Below, in pieces: positions 34,032 to 41,100 of a stretch of DNA of 64,000 nt; positions within the stretch are counted from its first letter, which is position 1; each line of letters starts with the position of its first letter. The stretch comes from a virus (taxonomy: Duplodnaviria; Caudoviricetes): positions 1 through 64,000 of IMG/VR virus record IMGVR_UViG_2775507133_000001. One strand, given 5' to 3'. A program made the translations under genes and the position numbers. The notes under the pieces were generated by a model. That model had not been told where the DNA came from and did not search any database. It saw only the letters and a list, made by a program, of their open reading frames with translations.

Positions 34032-35591
34032 TCAGCGGATGCGCTGGGAGTACGGGGAAGCCGGCCGGTTGCCGGTGGGCTGGGGGGCCGTCGGCAGGGG
34101 TGCGTGGGCGATCGCCCCGGCGTTGGCTTCGGGGATCAGGCCGTACACGAGGACGCAGGAGGCGTCGATGCGGCCGGGGCTGTCGGGGTCGGTGGGCTGC
34201 CAGGTCGCCCACTCGCGCTCCAGGTCGGGGAACACCCCCCGCAGCCGGACCTTGTCCTGCACCATCTGCTGCGCGATCGGCTCCGCGCGCAGCAGCTTGC
34301 CCTGCTTGGCGCGCACGGGGTGGATCGCGGGCATGAGGACGTTCTTCGGGATCTCCCCGTCCCGCTGGAGCGTCTCCCACGACGTGCGGATGGCCAGCAC
34401 ACACATGTCGCGGCCGAAGTTCCACTCCACGTAGATGATCGACGCGTTCGTGCGGTGGGCGAGGCGGCACGCGGCGGTGGACCACTCGGCCGAGGACATC
34501 GGCGCGGAGACGTCGTCGGTGACCCACACGCGGCCGTCGTCGCCGAGGAACCCGCCGATGACGCCCGCGGTGTCCCGGCCGCCGCCCGAGGGGTCGATGC
34601 TGACGGCGATCTTCTGCGGCTCCACCGGTGTGCCGGTGTCGCGGAGCAGGCGCAGCAGTTCCTCGGACACGAGCGCTCCCTCTGCGGGCTGGGGGTCGCC
34701 CTGGTACAGGGCGTGCCAGTCCCGGACGATCGACGTGGTCTTCTTCTGCGCCCACCAGGCGCGCAGCCGCGCCGTGTCGCGGGTGGGGATCTTCGGGTGC
34801 GGCAGGGGCTCGCCGGGCTCCCGGCCGAGCGGGTCGGGCCCGAACTTGGGGTCGGCGACCGCGGGGAGGTGGATTACCTTCCACCGGCCGCCTTCCTCGA
34901 TCCGCCCCTCTTCCTCGAGGCGCCGGCCGGCGAAGTCGTCCGGGTGCCATCGGGTCTGGATCGCGACGACAGCGCTGCGGTCGGGCTGGAGGCGGGACAG
35001 GGCGGCCGAGGAGTACCAGTCGTGCAGGGCACGCCGTGCGGCTTCCGACTCGGCGTCCGCGCGGTCCTTGTGCGGGTCGTCGATGATCAGCAGGTTCACG
35101 TCGAAACCCGTGAGACCCTTCCCCACCGACACGGACCGGCAGCCGCCGCCCTTCGTGACCTCCCAGTCCTGCATCGCACCGGAGCCCGGCTTCAGACGCA
35201 GGTCCCACTCGTCGCCGAACTCTTCGACGTAGCCGCGGATCCTCTTGCCCCGGCGCAGCGCCAGGTCGTCGCCGTACGACGTGACGGCGACCTTGTCCCG
35301 GCCGAACATGCACAGCCACCAGAACGGAAACCACTCCGCGACGCACGTGGACTTCCCGACCTGGGGCGGGGTCAGGATCAGCAGCCGGTCGACGTCGCCC
35401 TGGGCGACCTCGGCGAGCGCCTGGCCGATCAGCTTGAGGTGCGGCCGCATCCGGAACCGGCGGTCGAGGCCGCGGGCGAGCGTCACCGGGTCGCGCAGCA
35501 GGTCCGCGCTCATCGCCCGGCGCGCGGCCTCCAGCTGCCGGTACACCTCCTCGTCGTCCAGGTGCTCCAGCTCGTCCACGGCCGTCGTCAC
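34032..35591 (-). CDS. Terminase large subunit
   Basis: Walker A PPQVGKS, Walker B LLIIDD, IQTRWH, nuclease IDPS...SPGRIDA. Confidence 0.92.
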   Translation of the reverse strand: MTTAVDELEHLDDEEVYRQLEAARRAMSADLLRDPVTLARGLDRRFRMRPHLKLIGQALAEVAQGDVDRLLILTPPQVGKSTCVAEWFPFWWLCMFGRDKVAVTSYGDDLALRRGKRIRGYVEEFGDEWDLRLKPGSGAMQDWEVTKGGGCRSVSVGKGLTGFDVNLLIIDDPHKDRADAESEAARRALHDWYSSAALSRLQPDRSAVVAIQTRWHPDDFAGRRLEEEGRIEEGGRWKVIHLPAVADPKFGPDPLGREPGEPLPHPKIPTRDTARLRAWWAQKKTTSIVRDWHALYQGDPQPAEGALVSEELLRLLRDTGTPVEPQKIAVSIDPSGGGRDTAGVIGGFLGDDGRVWVTDDVSAPMSSAEWSTAACRLAHRTNASIIYVEWNFGRDMCVLAIRTSWETLQRDGEIPKNVLMPAIHPVRAKQGKLLRAEPIAQQMVQDKVRLRGVFPDLEREWATWQPTDPDSPGRIDASCVLVYGLIPEANAGAIAHAPLPTAPQPTGNRPASPYSQRIR

Positions 35592-35595
35592 AGCG

Positions 35596-36207
35596 CTACG
35601 CCTCCTCGTCGTCGTCGGGGTCGTCTTCGTCGTCGCCGCCCTCGACCGCGCGGATCCTCTGGTTCACCGACGCGGCCAGCTCCCCGAGCCGGGCACGCCG
35701 CTGCTCCGGGGCCATCTGCGCGAACTCCTCGAAGTGCTTCGCCAACGCGGTCGAGCCTTCGCCGGTGACGGCGATCGTCTGCGTGGGGTCGCCGAAAAGG
35801 ACGCGCCGGTGCCGCATCGCGACGTCCATCAGCCGGATGAAGTCGCCGGGCGACAGTTCCTCGGGGCGGAGCGTCTGGAGCCGGCCGACGAGCTTGCCGA
35901 CCGCCGCGCCGAGGATCTTCGCGTCGTTCTCGGCGGCCTTGCGGCGCTCCTCCAGCCACATGGCCTCGTACTGGCGGTCCAGGTGCCGGTCGTACGCCTC
36001 GACGCGCTCCCGCCACCGGAACCAGGCCGCCAGGTTCCTCACGTGCCCGTACGCGAGTGTCAGCCTCTGCGCTGCTTCTGTCAGGGTGCGGGTGCGGCCG
36101 AGGTCCCGGTAGGTGGCGAACTGACCGTGTTTGTGGGCTGACTCCCCGGGCTGGCGTTCCCAGGGGTCCAGGGTGGGGTCGAGGGTGATGGGCTGGCGTG
36201 TGCTCAT
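35596..36207 (-). CDS. Terminase small subunit (putative)
   Basis: WERQPGES..F..YRDLG..RT HTH then W.ER..AYD; directly upstream of TerL. Confidence 0.75.
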   Translation of the reverse strand: MSTRQPITLDPTLDPWERQPGESAHKHGQFATYRDLGRTRTLTEAAQRLTLAYGHVRNLAAWFRWRERVEAYDRHLDRQYEAMWLEERRKAAENDAKILGAAVGKLVGRLQTLRPEELSPGDFIRLMDVAMRHRRVLFGDPTQTIAVTGEGSTALAKHFEEFAQMAPEQRRARLGELAASVNQRIRAVEGGDDEDDPDDDEEA

Positions 36208-36419
36208 GTGGCCCGTGCCTCCCTGTTCACGGTGCGGTCGTACCGGTAGTGCCACAGGGGTCCGTCGTCGCCTGGGTTCAGGGCGCGGACGTACATGAGT
36301 CGGTCGCCGTCGGGGTTGCGGAGTTCGTAGGTGTGGGGCGGGTTCCAGGGGTCGCCGGGGATGGCGAGGAGCCGGCCGTCGGCTGGGCCGCCTACGAACT
36401 GGACGCCGACGCCGCTCAT
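36204..36419 (-). CDS. Small hypothetical protein (FVGGPADG)
   Basis: ATGA-coupled on both sides. Confidence 0.65.
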   Translation of the reverse strand: MSGVGVQFVGGPADGRLLAIPGDPWNPPHTYELRNPDGDRLMYVRALNPGDDGPLWHYRYDRTVNREARAT

Positions 36420-37354
36420 GCCGGGTCGCTCGGGGTGTGGTTGGGTCCGGACAGGTACTCACCCGCCAGGCGTTCGAGGAGCTTCCAGCCCTGCCCCTGC
36501 TCGATCTCGCCGCGTCCCTCTGCTGCGGCTATCGCCTTGTTCAGGGTGACGGCGGCCGGGGCGGGGAGTGTGCGGGCTCCGAGGACGGTCTCCAGGCCGA
36601 CGTTCCCCGAGTGGAGGTGGGTGCCGTCGGGGGCGGTGTAGCCGTCGGCGAGTTCGTCGAGGTGGCGTTCGACGATCGCGAGGATGGCGTGGAGTGCGGT
36701 GGCGACGTTGCCGACCTTGTGGGCGGCGTGGGTGGACGCGAGCGTGTCCAGGGTCCGCTCGTAGTCGGCGCGTGCGGCCAGCCAGGACTCGTTCTGGCCG
36801 ACGCGGGCCTGGTCGAACGCTTCGCGGGCGGCTTCGAGCTCGGACGGCAGGAAGATCAGGGACACGGTGGCGAAGTCGAGGTTCGCTTCCGAGAGGCCCT
36901 CGGGGCTGACTTCGGCGAGGAGCTGGAGCTGTGCGTCGTCCAGGCCCGAGTAGGCGCGCCAGTCGACGTCGTCGAGTTCGTCGTAGAGCTGCTTGAGGGT
37001 GGCGGGGTCGTCCTCGCCTGCGATGGCGTTGTGGGACAGCTGGATCGCGACGAGCTGCTGCCGGGTGAGCTGCTCCTCGATGAGCATGCAGTCGATCTCG
37101 GTGAGGCCGGCTTCCGCTGCGGCCTTGGTGCGGTGGTTCCCGGACAGGATCAGCTCCTGGCCCTCCGCGTACTCGCCGCCGTTGTAGATCAGCGGGGTGG
37201 AGGTGAGGCAGCCGTCGCGGCGGATGTTCTCGACGAGGCGGTCCCACTCCTCCTTCCGCATGAAGCGGGCGTTCACCTCAAGGGGGGTGAGGGTGCGCGG
37301 GTCGCGGCGGACGAGGCGGGGCCGGAACAGCGGGGTGGTGGTGTCGGTCGTCAT
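36416..37354 (-). CDS. ParB/Srx-like N-terminal-domain protein (DNA modification/packaging-associated)
   Basis: NARFM...LVENIRRDG...ILSGNHR; ATGA overlap with the upstream gene. Confidence 0.8.
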   Translation of the reverse strand: MTTDTTTPLFRPRLVRRDPRTLTPLEVNARFMRKEEWDRLVENIRRDGCLTSTPLIYNGGEYAEGQELILSGNHRTKAAAEAGLTEIDCMLIEEQLTRQQLVAIQLSHNAIAGEDDPATLKQLYDELDDVDWRAYSGLDDAQLQLLAEVSPEGLSEANLDFATVSLIFLPSELEAAREAFDQARVGQNESWLAARADYERTLDTLASTHAAHKVGNVATALHAILAIVERHLDELADGYTAPDGTHLHSGNVGLETVLGARTLPAPAAVTLNKAIAAAEGRGEIEQGQGWKLLERLAGEYLSGPNHTPSDPA

Positions 37355-38706
37355 CGCAGGTCCTTGCCGTGCTTGGTCTTCCACAGGGACAGGGCGTCGT
37401 CCAAGTCGTAGGCGCCGAGGGGGCCGCCGTACTGGAGCTGGTAGCGGTGGATCCCGTCGCCGGGGTCCTTGCTGCTGGCTTCGGTGCGTTTCTGGAGCTT
37501 CACGCCAGGGATGCCGCGCCCGTACTTCGCGCTGTTGGGTCGGTCGGTGAACGCGGTGGTGGCCCAGCCGTCGATGCGCTTGGAGAGGCTGCGCTGGATG
37601 AGGACCTGCGCCTCCTTCGTGGAAGCGGCCATCACGATGAGCTTGGCGAGGCGCCGGTAGCGGGTCCACGACACGGGGAAGTCCGACATGAGGTAGGCGG
37701 TGTTGGGGTCGAACTTCGGCGGCAGGTACGCGAACGCGCCGATCAGCTTGCCGTCGACGGCGACGCCGCACGCGATGAGCGGGCTGCCGGGCTTGATCGA
37801 CTTGGACATGAACTGGGAGCGGATGCCCGCGAACTGGCCGCCGGTGAGGACGTGGAGGCTCATGCGGTCGCCGAGCGGCTCGTCGGGGCCGATCTTCGGC
37901 ATAGGGATCGCCTCGACGGGCTGGCGGGGGCGGACGATGCGGCGGGGCCCGGCGGCGGCGTACACGTAGATCGGCAGGCCGCGGTTCGCGGTCTGGACGA
38001 CGCCGGCGAGGCGGTCGCGCAGCTCGGGGCGTTCGATGTGCAGGCCGAGGACCCAGTTGGGCCGGTCCTGGACCTGCTCGATGATGCGTTCCTTGCCGTC
38101 CTCGGTGAGGTCGTCGAACGACGGCTCGGGCCAGTGGAACGCGGCGTCGATGGACGCGAACTGCGCCTGGTAATCCTTCGCGTAGAACGGGGGGAACATC
38201 ACCACCGGGGCGTCGGGGGGCACCTCCTGGTCGAGGTAGTCGCGGACGTCGCCGGCGTAGAACGAGCCCAGCTTGGTTTCCAGGGCGCGGAGCTTGGTGG
38301 CGGTCTTCTCGTGCATCCGCGCCCATTGGTCGCGGGTGGCGTCCATCATCCGCCGGTAGTAGGCGCCGTCCTTACCGACGTACTGGAGGAAGCGGGTGCC
38401 CAGCATCAGCGTCGCCATGAGGTCGGCGCGGTCTTCCAGGTACGGGTGGAGCCAGCCGAGGGTGTCCTCGTACTCCTCGCGGAGGGTGAAGTTGAGCGGG
38501 TCGCCGGCGAGGTACCAGCCGAGAGCGCACGAGTACGCCTGGATGTCGTTGCCGTGGACGCGCCGCTGGTCGCCGAACCGGGCGTGGAGGACGCGTTCGA
38601 TGGTGAAGTTGCCCGAGCATCCGACGTAGATGTCGTCGCCGGGCCAGGTCCCGGCGTGCTCGTAGATGATCGACCGCAGGGGCGCGGGTATCGATCCGTG
38701 GAACAT
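37351..38706 (-). CDS. Adenine-methyltransferase-fold + GNAT (Mom-like) fusion, putative DNA modification/anti-restriction enzyme
   Basis: N-terminal YVGCSGNF...HGNDI (SAM-binding-like) and FPPFY (motif IV-like); C-terminal CGVAVDGKLIGAFAY...RRLAKLIV...TTAFT...SAKYGRG GNAT-like; GGAG RBS. Confidence 0.7.
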   Translation of the reverse strand: MFHGSIPAPLRSIIYEHAGTWPGDDIYVGCSGNFTIERVLHARFGDQRRVHGNDIQAYSCALGWYLAGDPLNFTLREEYEDTLGWLHPYLEDRADLMATLMLGTRFLQYVGKDGAYYRRMMDATRDQWARMHEKTATKLRALETKLGSFYAGDVRDYLDQEVPPDAPVVMFPPFYAKDYQAQFASIDAAFHWPEPSFDDLTEDGKERIIEQVQDRPNWVLGLHIERPELRDRLAGVVQTANRGLPIYVYAAAGPRRIVRPRQPVEAIPMPKIGPDEPLGDRMSLHVLTGGQFAGIRSQFMSKSIKPGSPLIACGVAVDGKLIGAFAYLPPKFDPNTAYLMSDFPVSWTRYRRLAKLIVMAASTKEAQVLIQRSLSKRIDGWATTAFTDRPNSAKYGRGIPGVKLQKRTEASSKDPGDGIHRYQLQYGGPLGAYDLDDALSLWKTKHGKDLR

Positions 38707-38830
38707 GGGCCGCTCCAATGAAGTCCGTGGCGCAGGCCCGGGGTGCAACCTGCGGGTTTGGCCCATTGTGAGTGGTCTTGGGGGGTGCGAAGGGCCCCTC
38801 ACCGGGGGCGTGGCGAGGGGCCCTGCATCG

Positions 38831-38905
38831 TGGAGCGCCGGCCAGGGCTTGCACCTGGATCGCCCGACTGGAAGTCGGGCCGTGTTACTTACTACGCACC
38901 AGCGC
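38831..38905 (-). tRNA. Non-canonical tRNA-Gly (anticodon UCC) with encoded CCA
   Basis: GCGCTGG TG CGT AGTAAGTAAC ACG G CCCGA CTTCCAG TCGGG CGAT CCAGG TGCAAGC CCTGG CCGGCGC T CCA: full cloverleaf, G1-C72/C2-G71/G3-C70, U73. Confidence 0.88.
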
Positions 38906-39012
38906 GGGGTGGCCGTGAAGCGATCGGCCGCTTCGGACGTTAGAGGCCGAGCCCATGGGGGATCAAGAACGAAACAATGGCCGGGTTAAGCGTGCTGCGG
39001 CGGACGCTTGCT

Positions 39013-39633
39013 TTACTTACGTGATCGCTGCCGTCGCAGCATCAAGGAAGCGATCCCGGTGGCCAATGTCAGGATGAACGCGCCGCTCGTTACAACCAGC
39101 AACCAGACAGGCGTACCCGCCCCGGCAGCGACCCCTAGGCCAGTGGTGCAGGTGGCACTGAAGACGGCCAAAGACCGCGGGCTGAGGGACACAATCCAAA
39201 CTGGGGTTACCGGTGCCTCGGTGTCGTCACGGGCCTCGGCTGCGGCTTTGGCCGCGGCCATGATCTTGGTGGTGGCCCGCGCGCCGCGCAAGGACAGCCC
39301 GATGGCGAACTTCATGCCGTCGATCCAGCGCAGCAGTCTCCCGCGCTTTGGCCCCTTGAGCATCGGCCACAGCTCCGCTCGCCACGACTGGTACAGCTCG
39401 GAGCGGTAGGCCTTGGGCACCTGGATGCGGGCGAGCTGGAGCACGACGAACGGGATGCGCAGCGGCACCTTACGCAGGAGCGCCATCGTCGTCTCGTAGA
39501 TGACCGCGGCGACGATCGCGCAGATCATCGCGACCGTCCACCCGTTGACGTCGTGGCCGATGAAGGTGCCGCCGTGGACTTCGACGCCGGGCGCGGCGGC
39601 CGCGGGCAGGAGGGAAATGGTCACCGGGCTCAC
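39013..39633 (-). CDS. Membrane protein paired with the PadR regulator
   Basis: Three hydrophobic segments; overlaps the PadR stop. Confidence 0.6.
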   Translation of the reverse strand: MSPVTISLLPAAAAPGVEVHGGTFIGHDVNGWTVAMICAIVAAVIYETTMALLRKVPLRIPFVVLQLARIQVPKAYRSELYQSWRAELWPMLKGPKRGRLLRWIDGMKFAIGLSLRGARATTKIMAAAKAAAEARDDTEAPVTPVWIVSLSPRSLAVFSATCTTGLGVAAGAGTPVWLLVVTSGAFILTLATGIASLMLRRQRSRK

Positions 39634-40049
39634 CGCCCCATCAGGGCGGAGGCGAGCGCACCGTTGACGACTACGAGGAAGCTGCCAGCGATGCAGCCCG
39701 GGGTCACGCGCCAGGTGGGCTGCCAGCCGGGGCGCCAGGCGGGCGACTTCGCCGGGGGGCGGACGGCGTTGCTGTAGTCGACGAGCGCGGCGTGTGCCGC
39801 GACGGCGCCCTTGCCGGTCATCTGGAAGTAGCGGCGGGCGGGCCGCCGTTCGGCCTTGGCGACCTCGGGATCCTCGGACTCCTGCGTGATCCAGTCTTCC
39901 GCCTCCATGCGGGCGAGCGCCGGGTACAGGGAGCCGCTGCCGATGCCGGCGGCCTTCATGATCTCCGTGGCGAACAACTTCGCTTCGGGATCTTCTAGGA
40001 ACGTCTGGATGATCCGCACCATCGCGGGTGTCAGATGCTTTTGGTCCAT
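39630..40049 (-). CDS. PadR-family transcriptional regulator
   Basis: GSLYPALARME...W...RRYFQMT.KG. Confidence 0.85.
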   Translation of the reverse strand: MDQKHLTPAMVRIIQTFLEDPEAKLFATEIMKAAGIGSGSLYPALARMEAEDWITQESEDPEVAKAERRPARRYFQMTGKGAVAAHAALVDYSNAVRPPAKSPAWRPGWQPTWRVTPGCIAGSFLVVVNGALASALMGR

Positions 40050-40158: not shown

Positions 40159-41100
40159 TCAGCCTTGCCAGCAGGCGACGGCCGCGACGCGCGGGGACCG
40201 TTCGGCCTCCGCGATGATCTCCGCCATGGACAGGTCCTTGCGGAAGCGGTGCCCGATCTTCTGCTCGATGCCGGCGAGGCGGGCGGCGGGCTCCGGGTTG
40301 AGCTGCGCGGACAGGACGAGCGCCGGCCGGGACGCGAGGACGCAGAACATGCACGACAGGCGGGGCATCCCGGCGAGGTAGGCGGGGTGCTTGCGCCGCC
40401 CGGAGGTCTCGACGGCCATCCACACGTCCAGCTCCGACCAGGCGTGCACCGGGTACCAGACGTCGACGTGCCGCAGGGTGTTCGAGGCGCCCCAGCCGGG
40501 GCCCACGCCCTTCGGTACCGGCTGCTTGCGCGCCTTGTACTTCTCGGCCTTGGCCCGCTTGGGCACGCACGTCTCGCAGGGGCAGGTCCAGGCGCCTTCG
40601 TGGGAGAACGCGAGGAGCTTGCGGCGGGCCGGTGACTCCTCGGCGCGCAGGCCCATGACGTTGAGGATGCGGACGCGGCCGGTGTGCCCGGCGTCGAGGG
40701 CTTCCTGGACGAGGCGGGTCATCAGGGTGCGGACGGGGCCTCGCTTGAAGTCGGAGGTGCACCACCGGTTGTCGGCGTCGGGGAACATGCCGCGTTCCTC
40801 GATCCGGTCGATGAGGTCGCCGCCCTTCCTCGCGACGACCTCGAACCGCAGGCCGTACGCGGCGGCGTGCTCGGCGGCCAGCTCGCGGGTGCCTTCCCAC
40901 TCGGCGGAGCCCAAGTCAGCGTGGACGCACACGATGCGGTCGGCGACGCCGGCCGCGCGGGCGTGCTGCACGAGTTCGTGCAGCATCGCGATGGAGTCCT
41001 TGCCGCCCGACAGGTTCGCAATGATCCACGTGTACGACGCCAGGTCGGGGACCTCGGTGCCGAAGCCGGGCAGGTCGAACGCCAGTTGAGCGGTGGGCAT
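40159..41100 (-). CDS. PAPS-reductase-family (PP-loop) protein
   Basis: SGGKDS PP-loop, RWCTSDFK, GLRAEESPAR, RLSCMFC. Confidence 0.85.
   Translation of the reverse strand: MPTAQLAFDLPGFGTEVPDLASYTWIIANLSGGKDSIAMLHELVQHARAAGVADRIVCVHADLGSAEWEGTRELAAEHAAAYGLRFEVVARKGGDLIDRIEERGMFPDADNRWCTSDFKRGPVRTLMTRLVQEALDAGHTGRVRILNVMGLRAEESPARRKLLAFSHEGAWTCPCETCVPKRAKAEKYKARKQPVPKGVGPGWGASNTLRHVDVWYPVHAWSELDVWMAVETSGRRKHPAYLAGMPRLSCMFCVLASRPALVLSAQLNPEPAARLAGIEQKIGHRFRKDLSMAEIIAEAERSPRVAAVACWQG

What the first reader, a model, noticed from the sequence alone, without database searches (positions are those of the whole stretch)
34032..38905. Candidate tRNA-dependent DNA hypermodification system: dedicated non-canonical tRNA-Gly + MTase/Mom-like GNAT fusion + ParB-like protein + terminase
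Seen: a 75-nt tRNA-Gly(UCC) gene, invisible to the ORF track, lies 124 nt upstream of and co-oriented with a 451-aa protein. That protein fuses an adenine-MTase-like fold (YVGCSG, FPPFY) to a GNAT-like C-terminal domain. It is coupled by ATGA overlaps to a ParB/Srx-like gene, a 71-aa ORF and TerS, with TerL 5 nt further on. Established: GNAT-fold enzymes such as FemABX use Gly-tRNA-Gly as donor. Phage Mu Mom is a GNAT-fold enzyme that makes N6-carbamoylmethyl-adenine; I recall Gly-tRNA-Gly being reported as its donor but cannot verify that here. ParB-like and MTase genes next to terminase are a known context for phage DNA modification. Inference: this phage encodes its own glycyl-donor tRNA, withheld from translation, for a glycine-derived adenine modification that protects packaged DNA from restriction. 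The MTase-like domain could supply base flipping, targeting or a second chemistry.
Basis: partly seen in the sequence, partly recalled or inferred. Interest (0 to 1): 0.95.

Follow-up and report, generated by a model that had tools for sequence, protein, structure and literature searches.

The report
Phage DNA-modification cassette with own tRNA-Gly
A prophage carries an odd glycine tRNA gene next to a two-domain enzyme and a ParB-like gene, a trio kept together in phages of several bacterial phyla, which suggests that the tRNA hands glycine to the enzyme to decorate the phage's DNA rather than to make protein.

Summary
A 75-nt tRNA-Gly(UCC) gene (38831-38905, minus strand) lies 124 nt upstream of a 451-aa protein. 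That protein matches Pfam PF22555 (Dam-like) and PF22559 (GNAT-like). ATGA overlaps couple it to a ParB-like gene, a 71-aa ORF and TerS; TerL follows.

A co-oriented tRNA-Gly-like gene sits just upstream of the homologous gene in 72 of 80 genome loci, 11 of 11 close viral loci, 50 of 69 further viral loci and 3 of 3 phage records. These include Mycobacterium and Gordonia phages and Bacillota MAGs. ARAGORN called two 89-nt 'tRNA-Arg' far downstream on the other strand; all its other calls were Gly or Gly-like.

In 120 unique sequences the glycyl-tRNA synthetase identity set is invariant or nearly so, while the wobble base is free (U/C/A/G). U8, G18G19, U33 and U55 are often lost. The window's tRNA has the TGC T-loop known from staphylococcal cell-wall tRNAs.

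The ParB-like gene follows in 91 of 94 loci. Mu Mom's use of Gly-tRNA is published.

Not shown: homology to Mom or to Dam (hhalign 0.3-3%), either fold (structure tools were off), and any chemistry. Best reading, about 55%: a Mom-like, tRNA-dependent glycyl modification of adenine in phage DNA. My searches found no paper on this cassette.

The parts
38831..38905 (-). Atypical tRNA-Gly(UCC) gene with encoded CCA. It has U73, G1-C72, C2-G71, G3-C70, C35 and C36. Its T-loop reads TGC instead of TTC, and its D-loop has no GG.
   Evidence: ARAGORN. Rfam 39.1 bits against 65-72 bits for host tRNA-Gly genes. Model R1 68.9 bits. Feature calls by script.
38785..38826 (-). Strong hairpin just 3' of the tRNA, with approximate bounds. 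It may be a terminator, an attenuator or a processing site between the tRNA and the enzyme gene. It has no U tract.
   Evidence: Minimum-free-energy fold of 38700-38910 on the minus strand. The terminator scan did not call it.
37891..38706 (-). N-terminal domain of the 451-aa protein (residues 1-272), Pfam PF22555 'Dam-like'. It carries GCSGN (G32 in 97 of 97 homologues), D54 (97 of 97) and (F/Y)PPF at residues 171-174 in place of a [D/N/S]PP[Y/F/W] motif.
   Evidence: Inteins sit right after this motif in homologues. The nearest named clusters in the ESM Atlas carry PF02086 (a lead only).
37366..37869 (-). C-terminal domain (residues 280-447), Pfam PF22559 'GNAT-phage-like'. G323, L356, K394 and Y395 are invariant; R296, D342, S392 and R397 are nearly so.
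37351..38706 (-). Whole coding sequence of the fusion enzyme (451 aa, stop codon included).
36416..37354 (-). ParB/Srx-like gene (312 aa) with an invariant SGNHR motif. Its start overlaps the enzyme's stop (ATGA).
   Evidence: phrog_7405 at 2.4e-67 and ParB-like PHROGs. Found directly downstream in 91 of 94 loci. Alignment. Overlap.
36204..36419 (-). 71-aa ORF, coupled by ATGA overlaps on both sides, with no family match. It is not a conserved part of the cassette.
   Evidence: Found in 6 of 94 loci.
35596..36207 (-). Terminase small subunit.
   Evidence: phrog_6299 at 2e-23. Found within the flank in 77 of 94 loci.
34032..35591 (-). Terminase large subunit.
   Evidence: Terminase_6N at 4.8e-07. 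phrog_38 at 2e-82.

Best explanation
This is a three-part phage cassette: an atypical tRNA-Gly gene, a fusion enzyme with a Dam-like and a GNAT-like domain, and a ParB-like protein. I propose that it puts a glycine-derived group on adenine in the phage's own double-stranded DNA, probably around the time of packaging, to blunt host restriction.

Proposed steps, all inferred unless marked otherwise:
1. The host glycyl-tRNA synthetase charges the phage tRNA. Shown here: the identity set is kept.
2. The tRNA has lost features used by the ribosome and probably by EF-Tu. This would leave a pool of Gly-tRNA outside translation, as with the staphylococcal cell-wall tRNAs.
3. The Dam-like domain has no methyl-transfer-type D/N/S in its PP motif, but it keeps the glycine and acidic residues of a nucleotide pocket. 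I propose that it finds the site and flips the adenine out.
4. The GNAT-like domain moves the glycyl group from A76 of the tRNA to N6 of the adenine.
5. As in Mu Mom, the glycyl-adenine may then rearrange to N6-carbamoylmethyl-adenine.
6. The ParB-like protein acts as an activator on dsDNA, as a ParB partner does for a phage thymine dioxygenase.
For: Linkage:
- A co-oriented tRNA-Gly-like gene lies 13-360 nt upstream of the homologous gene. It is farther only where the match starts after an intein or, in L036, 622 nt.
- Model R1 finds it in 87 of 95 sources, the window included, and in 50 of 69 further viral loci (two of these are placed otherwise, see evidence against).
- ARAGORN, which knows nothing of glycine, finds it in 64 of 80 genome loci, 8 of 11 close viral loci and 49 of 69 further viral loci. 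Every one is Gly or an odd-loop *CC form.
- Protein identity to the window falls to 34-46% in these loci. Named hosts include Streptomyces, Micromonospora, Nonomuraea, Nakamurella, Mycobacterium and Gordonia phages, Clostridia, Oscillospiraceae and Bacillota MAGs.

Selection pattern in 120 unique tRNAs:
- G1, C2, G71, C72, U73 and C35 are present in 120 of 120. G3, C70 and C36 are present in 119 of 120. This is the published bacterial glycine identity set (PMC9976931, passages).
- Position 34 is U in 76, C in 25, A in 16 and G in 3.
- Position 33 is not U in 31. Position 55 is not U in 27 (G in 22). Position 8 is not U in 32. GG is present in the D-loop of only 55.
- In the first set, 77 of 79 break at least one of six elongator features.

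The cloverleaf is real: 98.3% of cells are paired, 17 of 21 pairs show compensatory change, and 0 of 500 shuffles reach this.

The TGC T-loop is the mark of staphylococcal non-proteogenic tRNA-Gly, which bind EF-Tu and the ribosome poorly (PMC7826273, passages).

No translational need is apparent:
- The host has canonical UCC, CCC and GCC tRNA-Gly genes.
- GGA makes up 4.5% of Gly codons in 8 prophage ORFs against 6.7% in a host proxy.
- It is the only tRNA in the window. It is also the only one in the 57 kb of phage Jeon that I examined.

Enzyme:
- Both domains are present in 97 of 97 diverse homologues.
- The first residue of the PP motif is F in 67, Y in 24, C in 3, A in 2 and R in 1, and never D, N or S. 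D54 and G32 are present in 97 of 97.
- Inteins are inserted right after this motif.
- ESM Atlas leads: the N-terminal domain is nearest PF02086 clusters (score 0.92, 186 shared features). The C-terminal domain is nearest a cluster in which 21% of members carry Mom (score 0.87).

Partner: the ParB-like gene is directly downstream in 91 of 94 loci.

Precedents: Mom uses Gly-tRNA-Gly on dsDNA (PMC13219725). A ParB partner activates a phage DNA dioxygenase on dsDNA (PMC13229309, passages). ParB-terminase loci have been predicted to modify DNA at packaging (PMC4738411, passages).
Against: - No sequence homology of the C-terminal domain to Mom: hhalign probabilities are 1.0, 2.0 and 3.0%, against 0.9% for a negative control.
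- No hit to any aminoacyl-tRNA transferase or GNAT family in Pfam or to any solved structure.
- No sequence homology of the N-terminal domain to D12 Dam: hhalign probability 0.3% against 8 sequences.
- Both folds therefore rest on Pfam's names and on language-model leads.
- Residues matching Mom R111 and S124 could not be placed.
- The tRNA is missing within the flank in 8 of 80 genome loci, even with filters off, and in 19 of 69 further viral loci. Three of those 19 have less than 520 nt of upstream flank. So the tRNA is not obligatory.
- In L144 it lies downstream and in L171 on the other strand.
- Two of 79 tRNAs, Jeon's among them, keep all six canonical features I scored and may still translate.
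- Model R1 also scores host canonical tRNA-Gly at 53-66 bits, so a model hit alone does not show that a tRNA is atypical.
- The invariance of the identity set is partly built into a search made with a glycine model.
- GGG is somewhat more frequent in the prophage ORFs (23.8% against 19.0%).
- No modification has been measured in any of these phages in the papers I found. NCBI and UniRef name the protein 'putative antirestriction adenine methyltransferase'.
Confidence: 0.55

Rival explanations
1. The tRNA is not a donor. It is either the enzyme's substrate or a cis-acting or decoy RNA. The fusion enzyme might modify this tRNA. The tRNA-like element might give an RNase P processing site or stabilise the operon's mRNA. 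Or it might replace or soak up a host tRNA-Gly that a defence nuclease or a GNAT toxin attacks.
For: GNAT toxins such as TacT recognise U73 and G71 of tRNA-Gly (PMC9976931, passage), and exactly these bases are invariant here. A strong hairpin separates the tRNA from the gene. Some loci carry tandem copies: L153, L170 and L199.
Against: A decoy or replacement tRNA for translation should keep its decoding features, yet U33, U55, U8 and the wobble base drift. A pure processing signal would not need C35 and C36 to be invariant. The constant partners are a ParB-like protein (91 of 94 loci) and often terminase genes, which points to DNA. The N-terminal domain's nearest named relatives are DNA adenine methylases (a lead only).
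Confidence: 0.15
2. The enzyme does take glycine from the charged tRNA, but the acceptor is not adenine in DNA. It could be a protein (for example the ParB-like partner or a packaging protein), a nucleotide, another base, or a cell-wall precursor.
For: Known aminoacyl-tRNA-using GNAT-type enzymes act on peptidoglycan precursors, lipids, proteins and nucleoside antibiotics (PMC13219725, Discussion and the legend of Fig. 5). The Dam-like domain lacks the D/N/S that methylases use to hold N6. The host genus carries an orphan tRNA of the same odd type without the enzyme.
Against: The Dam-like label and the Atlas lead point to adenine in DNA. ParB-like partners and terminase neighbours are a described context for DNA modification (PMC4738411 and PMC13229309). 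The cassette is carried by phages of hosts with quite different cell walls.
Confidence: 0.12
3. Ordinary reading: the protein is a plain N6-adenine methyltransferase with an acetyl-CoA-type GNAT tail. The tRNA is a normal phage-borne translational tRNA that happens to sit there.
For: NCBI and UniRef name the protein 'putative antirestriction adenine methyltransferase'. Phages often carry tRNAs. G32 and D54 fit a retained SAM pocket. Jeon's tRNA looks canonical in the six features I scored.
Against: Apart from two 89-nt 'tRNA-Arg' calls far downstream on the other strand (L040, L042), the tRNA is always Gly and always at the same place, across phyla. Anticodon ACC occurs in 16 of 120 and non-U33 in 31 of 120. 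There is no excess of GGA codons. None of 97 homologues has D, N or S in the PP motif. No Pfam acetyltransferase family is hit.
Confidence: 0.08

Closest known systems
Phage Mu Mom (Pfam PF25680), the GNAT-fold enzyme that moves glycine from Gly-tRNA-Gly to N6 of adenine in dsDNA to give N6-carbamoylmethyl-dA (PMC13219725)
   Same: It is a phage enzyme, and anti-restriction is the likely purpose. It has a link to tRNA-Gly: genetic here, biochemical in Mom. The catalytic domain carries a GNAT-type label. The nearest Atlas cluster outside its own family is one in which 21% of members carry Mom (score 0.87, a lead only).
   Different: No detectable sequence homology, and a different Pfam family. 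This protein is fused to a Dam-like domain, whereas Mom has an HTH-like insertion. It brings its own atypical tRNA, whereas Mom uses the host isoacceptors. It always has a ParB-like partner. No counterpart of the Com gene that overlaps mom in phage Mu was looked for here. It is found mainly in phages of Actinomycetota and Bacillota.
Staphylococcal non-proteogenic tRNA-Gly with the FmhB/FemA/FemB transferases (PMC7826273)
   Same: Both are extra tRNA-Gly genes that keep charging by GlyRS but depart from translational tRNAs. Both include the TGC (not TTC) T-loop and changes in the D-arm. Both are paired with a non-ribosomal glycyl transferase.
   Different: The acceptor there is lipid II, whereas here it is probably DNA. 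The tRNA here is encoded by a virus next to its enzyme. EF-Tu and ribosome binding are untested here. That paper says such tRNAs had been detected only in S. aureus and S. epidermidis (passage).
ParB-terminase (ParB-Tls) loci of phages, predicted to modify DNA at packaging (PMC4738411), and ParB-dependent phage T-dioxygenases (PMC13229309)
   Same: A ParB-like gene is coupled to a DNA-modifying enzyme next to TerS and TerL. A ParB partner is needed for activity on dsDNA in the dioxygenase case.
   Different: The enzyme here is neither a plain methylase nor a dioxygenase. It is a Dam-like/GNAT-like fusion with a tRNA gene. ParB dependence is inferred from co-occurrence only.
D12-class DNA adenine methyltransferases (Dam, PF02086)
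   Same: Pfam labels the domain Dam-like. The order and spacing of a glycine-rich motif, an acidic residue at position 54 and a PP motif near 171-174 match what I recall for E. coli Dam; those Dam numbers are recalled, not tested. The nearest named Atlas clusters carry PF02086.
   Different: No PF02086 hit in 97 of 97 members. hhalign probability is 0.3%. The first residue of the PP motif is F or Y in 91 of 97 members, never D, N or S, so classical N6 methyl transfer is unlikely.

Membership tests
PF22555 + PF22559 fusion family (phrog_7858) | Both Pfam models match above their curated cut-offs, in this order | tested here: met
   PF22555 scores 350.6 bits and PF22559 scores 190.8 bits, each against a cut-off of 27. 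phrog_7858 matches at 5.8e-85. Both domains are present in 97 of 97 homologues.
Mom family (PF25680) | Match to the Mom model, or profile-profile homology | tested here: not met
   The C-terminal domain hits only PF22559, and Mu Mom hits only PF25680. hhalign probabilities are 1.0, 2.0 and 3.0%.
Mom family (PF25680) | Catalytic residues equivalent to R111 and S124 | tested here: inconclusive
   There is no trustworthy alignment. The only aligned stretch does not place an R or S at those positions.
Mom family (PF25680) | Uses Gly-tRNA-Gly to acylate N6 of adenine in dsDNA | not testable with these tools
   Only the genetic linkage to a tRNA-Gly gene is shown.
GNAT superfamily | GNAT fold | not testable with these tools
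   No GNAT-clan family appears in Pfam scans up to E = 10. The label is Pfam's own.
D12 Dam methyltransferases (PF02086) | Catalytic [D/N/S]-P-P-[Y/F/W] motif | tested here: not met
   The first residue is F in 67, Y in 24, C in 3, A in 2 and R in 1 of 97 homologues, and never D, N or S.
D12 Dam methyltransferases (PF02086) | Sequence or profile match to the family | tested here: not met
   No PF02086 hit. hhalign probability is 0.3%. There is only an Atlas lead at 0.92.
tRNA (Rfam RF00005) | Reaches the gathering score and has a cloverleaf with covariation | tested here: met
   39.1 bits against a gathering score of 29. 98.3% of cells are paired, and 17 of 21 pairs show compensatory changes. 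Four of 10 related loci tested fall below Rfam's reach.
Bacterial tRNA-Gly (substrate of GlyRS) | U73, G1-C72, C2-G71, C35 and C36 | tested here: met
   All are present in the window's tRNA (the window row). They are present in 119-120 of 120 unique relatives. The identity set is taken from PMC9976931. Charging itself was not tested.
Non-proteogenic tRNA-Gly (staphylococcal type) | TGC or TGT in place of TTC in the T-loop | tested here: met
   The window's tRNA has TGC. G55 occurs in 22 of 120 relatives, so the feature is not general.
Non-proteogenic tRNA-Gly (staphylococcal type) | Poor binding to EF-Tu and the ribosome, and preferred use by a transferase | not testable with these tools
   Inferred only from lost features.
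ParB/Srx fold | Match to ParB N-terminal domain models | tested here: inconclusive
   Pfam ParB_N scores 17.8 bits, below its cut-off of 26.3. TIGR00180 scores 16.8 bits, below 58.45. ParB-like PHROGs match at 3e-13 to 2.4e-05. An SGNHR motif is invariant.
ParB-terminase DNA-modification locus | A ParB-like gene and a base-modifying enzyme beside the terminase genes | tested here: met
   The order in the window is enzyme, ParB-like gene, TerS, TerL. The ParB-like gene is present in 91 of 94 loci and TerS in 77 of 94.

The most novel reading that the evidence does not exclude
The methyltransferase-fold domain is the true transfer site. Its retained nucleotide pocket (G32 and D54 invariant) would no longer hold SAM. 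It would hold the glycyl-adenosine end (A76-Gly) of the phage's own non-translational tRNA, next to an adenine flipped against the (F/Y)PPF motif. The GNAT-like domain would only grip the acceptor helix. That would make a Rossmann methylase converted into an aminoacyl transferase, served by a virus-encoded cofactor tRNA. Its product could be a hypermodified adenine different from Mom's.
Probability: 0.12. Interest if true: 0.95.

Novelty: new variant of a known kind. Interest (0 to 1): 0.85.

Why it matters
Making a DNA base with the help of a tRNA was shown only recently, for one enzyme, Mu Mom. This cassette would be a second, apparently unrelated and much larger family: 488 clusters at 50% identity reach E <= 1e-30.

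It would also be the first case I know of in which a virus encodes a tRNA for a non-ribosomal job. That would give many 'orphan' phage tRNA genes a new possible meaning.

The comparative data separate two kinds of selection on a tRNA in a natural experiment. The bases needed for charging are frozen, while the bases needed for decoding drift.

The cassette is directly testable in harmless systems, namely Mycobacterium smegmatis and Gordonia phages that are already in culture collections. It could also yield a new DNA-labelling enzyme and a new anti-restriction mechanism.

Tried and rejected
- Sequence homology to Mom, to Dam and to any solved structure was sought and not found. Pfam scans of 22 C-terminal domains and of 97 full proteins at E <= 10 gave no recurring weak family. 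NCBIfam gave nothing for the enzyme.
- Expression: no RNA holder was listed for the stretch, and the five DNA rows hold 0.05-0.06 of the sampled words.
- Promoter and terminator scan around the tRNA: no promoter-like site. The only terminator-like site is the anticodon arm read on the other strand.
- The idea that the PAPS-reductase-like gene upstream belongs to the cassette is rejected: it is present in only 16 of 94 flanks, all close relatives.
- The idea that the host's second atypical tRNA-Gly marks a second copy of the enzyme is rejected: the genome holds no second homologue and there is no remnant beside that tRNA.
- My first control, which used all ARAGORN calls in the host genome, was too noisy because many calls are doubtful. 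I dropped it and used the canonical tRNA-Gly genes of the host instead: all five from their sequences, four of them scored by Rfam.
- Literature: searches for the Pfam names and accessions and for 'antirestriction adenine methyltransferase' found 0 papers. Searches on momylation terms, on the phage names and on combinations of tRNA, GNAT, ParB and methyltransferase found no paper on this cassette.
The Mom papers' supplementary homologue lists and similarity network (PMC13219725) may or may not include this family.
- Rows left out: L100 and L108 (genomes flagged unpublished) and L104, L105, L106, L109 and L112 were not used in the Dam alignment. The 11 loci that repeat one search were not counted again.
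- The collections overlap. The per-collection counts are therefore not independent.

Full report
**What is there.** The window is high in G+C. From about 60 kb down to 10 kb it reads as a prophage on the minus strand.

ARAGORN finds a single tRNA in all 64 kb: tRNA-Gly(UCC) at 38831-38905, minus strand. Rfam's general tRNA model scores it 39.1 bits. Its T-loop reads UGC where tRNAs normally have UUC. Four canonical tRNA-Gly genes of the host score 65.3-71.6 bits.

124 nt downstream begins a 451-aa protein (37351-38706). It matches two Pfam models end to end: PF22555 'Dam-like' at 6.9e-105 and PF22559 'GNAT-phage-like' at 1.9e-56.

ATGA overlaps couple it in turn to three genes:
- a 312-aa ParB-like gene (phrog_7405, 2.4e-67);
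- a 71-aa ORF;
- TerS (phrog_6299).

TerL (phrog_38) starts 4 nt after the TerS stop.

**The decisive comparison.** I collected relatives of the enzyme from four sources:
- 15 phage records, of which I read 3;
- 11 close viral contigs;
- 80 of 102 genome contigs;
- 80 of 166 viral contigs found with a diverse profile, 69 of them new.

ARAGORN, which has no bias towards glycine, predicts a tRNA immediately upstream on the same strand in these numbers:
- 8 of 11 close viral loci;
- 64 of 80 genome loci;
- 49 of 69 further viral loci (L144 and L171 among these are placed otherwise, see below);
- 1 of 3 phage records.

Every one is tRNA-Gly or a Gly-like form with an odd anticodon loop. The only other calls are two 89-nt 'tRNA-Arg' on the other strand, far downstream (L040 and L042).

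I built a covariance model from 38 of these tRNAs. It finds exactly one hit per source in 87 of 95 sources. Among them are the Gordonia phages, whose elements are too odd for ARAGORN and for Rfam. In the new viral set it finds hits in 50 of 69 loci, three of them with tandem pairs.

Misses and exceptions:
- Eight genome loci have none even with filters off.
- Nineteen viral loci have none within 1.5 kb or less of flank.
- In L144 the tRNA lies downstream.
- In L171 it is on the other strand.

The collections overlap in part, so the counts are not independent. The linkage nevertheless holds in hosts as far apart as Streptomyces, Micromonospora, Nakamurella, Mycobacterium and Gordonia phages, and Clostridia, Oscillospiraceae and Bacillota MAGs. 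It holds at 34-46% protein identity.

In phage Jeon the tRNA is annotated by the depositors. It is the only tRNA in the 57 kb I examined.

**What selection has kept and what it has let go.** Across 120 unique sequences:
- G1, C2, G71, C72, U73 and C35 are invariant.
- G3, C70 and C36 are each present in 119.

This is the experimentally defined bacterial glycine identity set (PMC9976931, passages).

The cloverleaf is maintained by compensatory change. In all, 98.3% of cells are paired and 17 of 21 pairs have double changes. None of 500 shuffles matches this, and slid controls pair in about 40% of cells. The first three acceptor pairs never covary, while pairs 4-7 do.

The decoding side drifts:
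- The wobble base is U in 76, C in 25, A in 16 and G in 3.
- U33 is lost in 31.
- U55 is lost in 27 (G in 22).
- U8 is lost in 32.
- Position 37 is a pyrimidine in 24.
- Only 55 have GG in the D-loop.
- In the first set, 77 of 79 break at least one of six near-universal features.

The window's own tRNA lacks the D-loop GG and has the TGC T-loop. TGC is the hallmark of the staphylococcal tRNA-Gly species that serve cell-wall synthesis and bind EF-Tu and ribosomes poorly (PMC7826273, passages).

A translational need is not apparent. The host has canonical UCC, CCC and GCC genes. GGA is not enriched in the prophage's ORFs: 4.5% against 6.7% in a host proxy. Three of the eight ORFs in that count are unverified long ORFs.

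Caveats:
- The alignments are fitted to the model.
- A glycine model favours glycine-like hits.
- The model also scores host tRNA-Gly at 53-66 bits.
- Two of 79 tRNAs look fully canonical.

**The proteins.** The enzyme family is large. At 50% clustering, 1280 representatives reach E <= 0.001 and 488 reach E <= 1e-30. All 97 sampled members carry both domains.

In the N-terminal domain G32 and D54 are invariant. The PP motif at 171-174 begins with F in 67, Y in 24, C in 3, A in 2 and R in 1, and never with the D, N or S that amino-methyltransferases use. Inteins in several homologues sit immediately after this motif, which marks it as a critical site.

By sequence I could tie this domain neither to D12 Dam (hhalign 0.3%) nor to any solved structure. 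A language-model search puts PF02086 clusters nearest: score 0.92, 186 shared features, 21 of 30 hits.

The C-terminal domain shows no significant relation to Mom (hhalign 1-3% against 0.9% for a control). It shows none to other Pfam families or to PDB sequences. Its nearest outside cluster in the Atlas is one in which 21% of members carry the Mom family, at 0.87, which is a lead only.

Both fold assignments therefore remain Pfam's.

The ParB-like gene follows the enzyme in 91 of 94 loci. The three exceptions have truncated enzymes. It is better conserved across phyla than the enzyme itself, and it has an invariant SGNHR motif. TerS lies within the flank in 77 of 94 loci. The 71-aa ORF is present in 6 of 94.

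**Reading.** Three published facts frame the cassette:
- Mom takes glycine from Gly-tRNA-Gly and puts it on N6 of adenine in dsDNA, after which the group rearranges (PMC13219725, abstract and Discussion).
- A phage T-dioxygenase needs its ParB-like neighbour to act on dsDNA (PMC13229309, passages).
- ParB-terminase loci were predicted to modify DNA at packaging (PMC4738411, passages).

Against this background I consider the following reading the most likely, at about 55%. The enzyme uses a charged glycine tRNA as donor. The phage supplies a tRNA tuned for charging but not for translation. The Dam-like domain, stripped of its methyl-transfer residue, presents the adenine. The ParB-like protein helps on duplex DNA.

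Only the linkage, the selection pattern and the motif states are shown here. Charging, transfer, target base and product are all inferred.

The rivals are:
- the tRNA is a substrate, a decoy or a processing element (0.15);
- the acceptor is something other than DNA (0.12);
- a plain methylase with a bystander tRNA (0.08).

**Novelty.** My searches found no paper on PF22555, PF22559, the NCBI name or this cassette. The two Mom papers do not mention methyltransferase fusions, actinophages or phage tRNAs in their main text.

The chemistry would be a variant of a known kind. The virus-encoded, non-translational donor tRNA, the fusion architecture and the ParB partner are new.

Noticed in passing
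outside the window: G000:C13:211329-211400, minus strand (locus L096 6330-6401): The host chromosome carries a second atypical tRNA-Gly(UCC), with a TGC T-loop. It is 79-85% identical to the most similar cassette tRNAs, and Rfam's tRNA model does not list it at E <= 1. No enzyme or ParB-like gene lies nearby; in this genome it sits beside a malate dehydrogenase gene. Near-identical copies (97%) occur in 2 of 3 other genomes of the genus. They share only about 120-130 nt of flank. It could be a host non-proteogenic tRNA-Gly (Streptomyces cell walls have a glycine bridge; this is recalled) or a relic of a mobile element.
   Followed up: partly
homologues P0014, P0116 and P0126 (and other relatives of about 600-770 aa): Inteins (starting with Cys, ending in HN, followed by S or T) are inserted directly after the (F/Y)PP(F/Y)x motif of the Dam-like domain. 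This marks the motif as a key site.
   Followed up: partly
window 40159-41100 (minus strand) and 39630-40049 (minus strand): A PAPS-reductase-like PP-loop gene (SGGKDS motif; PF01507 at 7.1e-09) and a PadR-like regulator lie just upstream of the tRNA. The PP-loop gene recurs in only 16 of 94 flanks, all close Streptomyces relatives. It may be a second, separate DNA-modification function.
   Followed up: partly
L153 1282-1429, L170 1261-1423 and L199 1271-1421: Some viral contigs carry two tandem tRNA-Gly-like genes before the enzyme gene. In L199 the anticodons differ (CCC and ACC).
   Followed up: no
window about 38785-38826 (minus strand); a similar hairpin in L015 about 2383-2410: A G+C-rich hairpin without a U tract follows the tRNA and precedes the enzyme gene. 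It may be a terminator, an attenuator or a processing site.
   Followed up: no
L053, L064 and L091: These are degraded cassettes. The enzyme match is truncated and no ParB-like gene is found. L053 and L091 still have the tRNA-like element.
   Followed up: no
L016 (92% identical enzyme), L056 and L082: These actinobacterial loci have the enzyme and the ParB-like gene but no tRNA within 2.5 kb. In L016 the upstream sequence is unrelated to that of its close relative L015. This suggests that the tRNA can be lost and host tRNA-Gly used instead.
   Followed up: no
L040 5342-5430 and L042 5336-5424 (minus strand): ARAGORN calls an 89-nt 'tRNA-Arg(CCT)' on the opposite strand downstream of the cassette in two Micromonospora loci. 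It is probably spurious.
   Followed up: no
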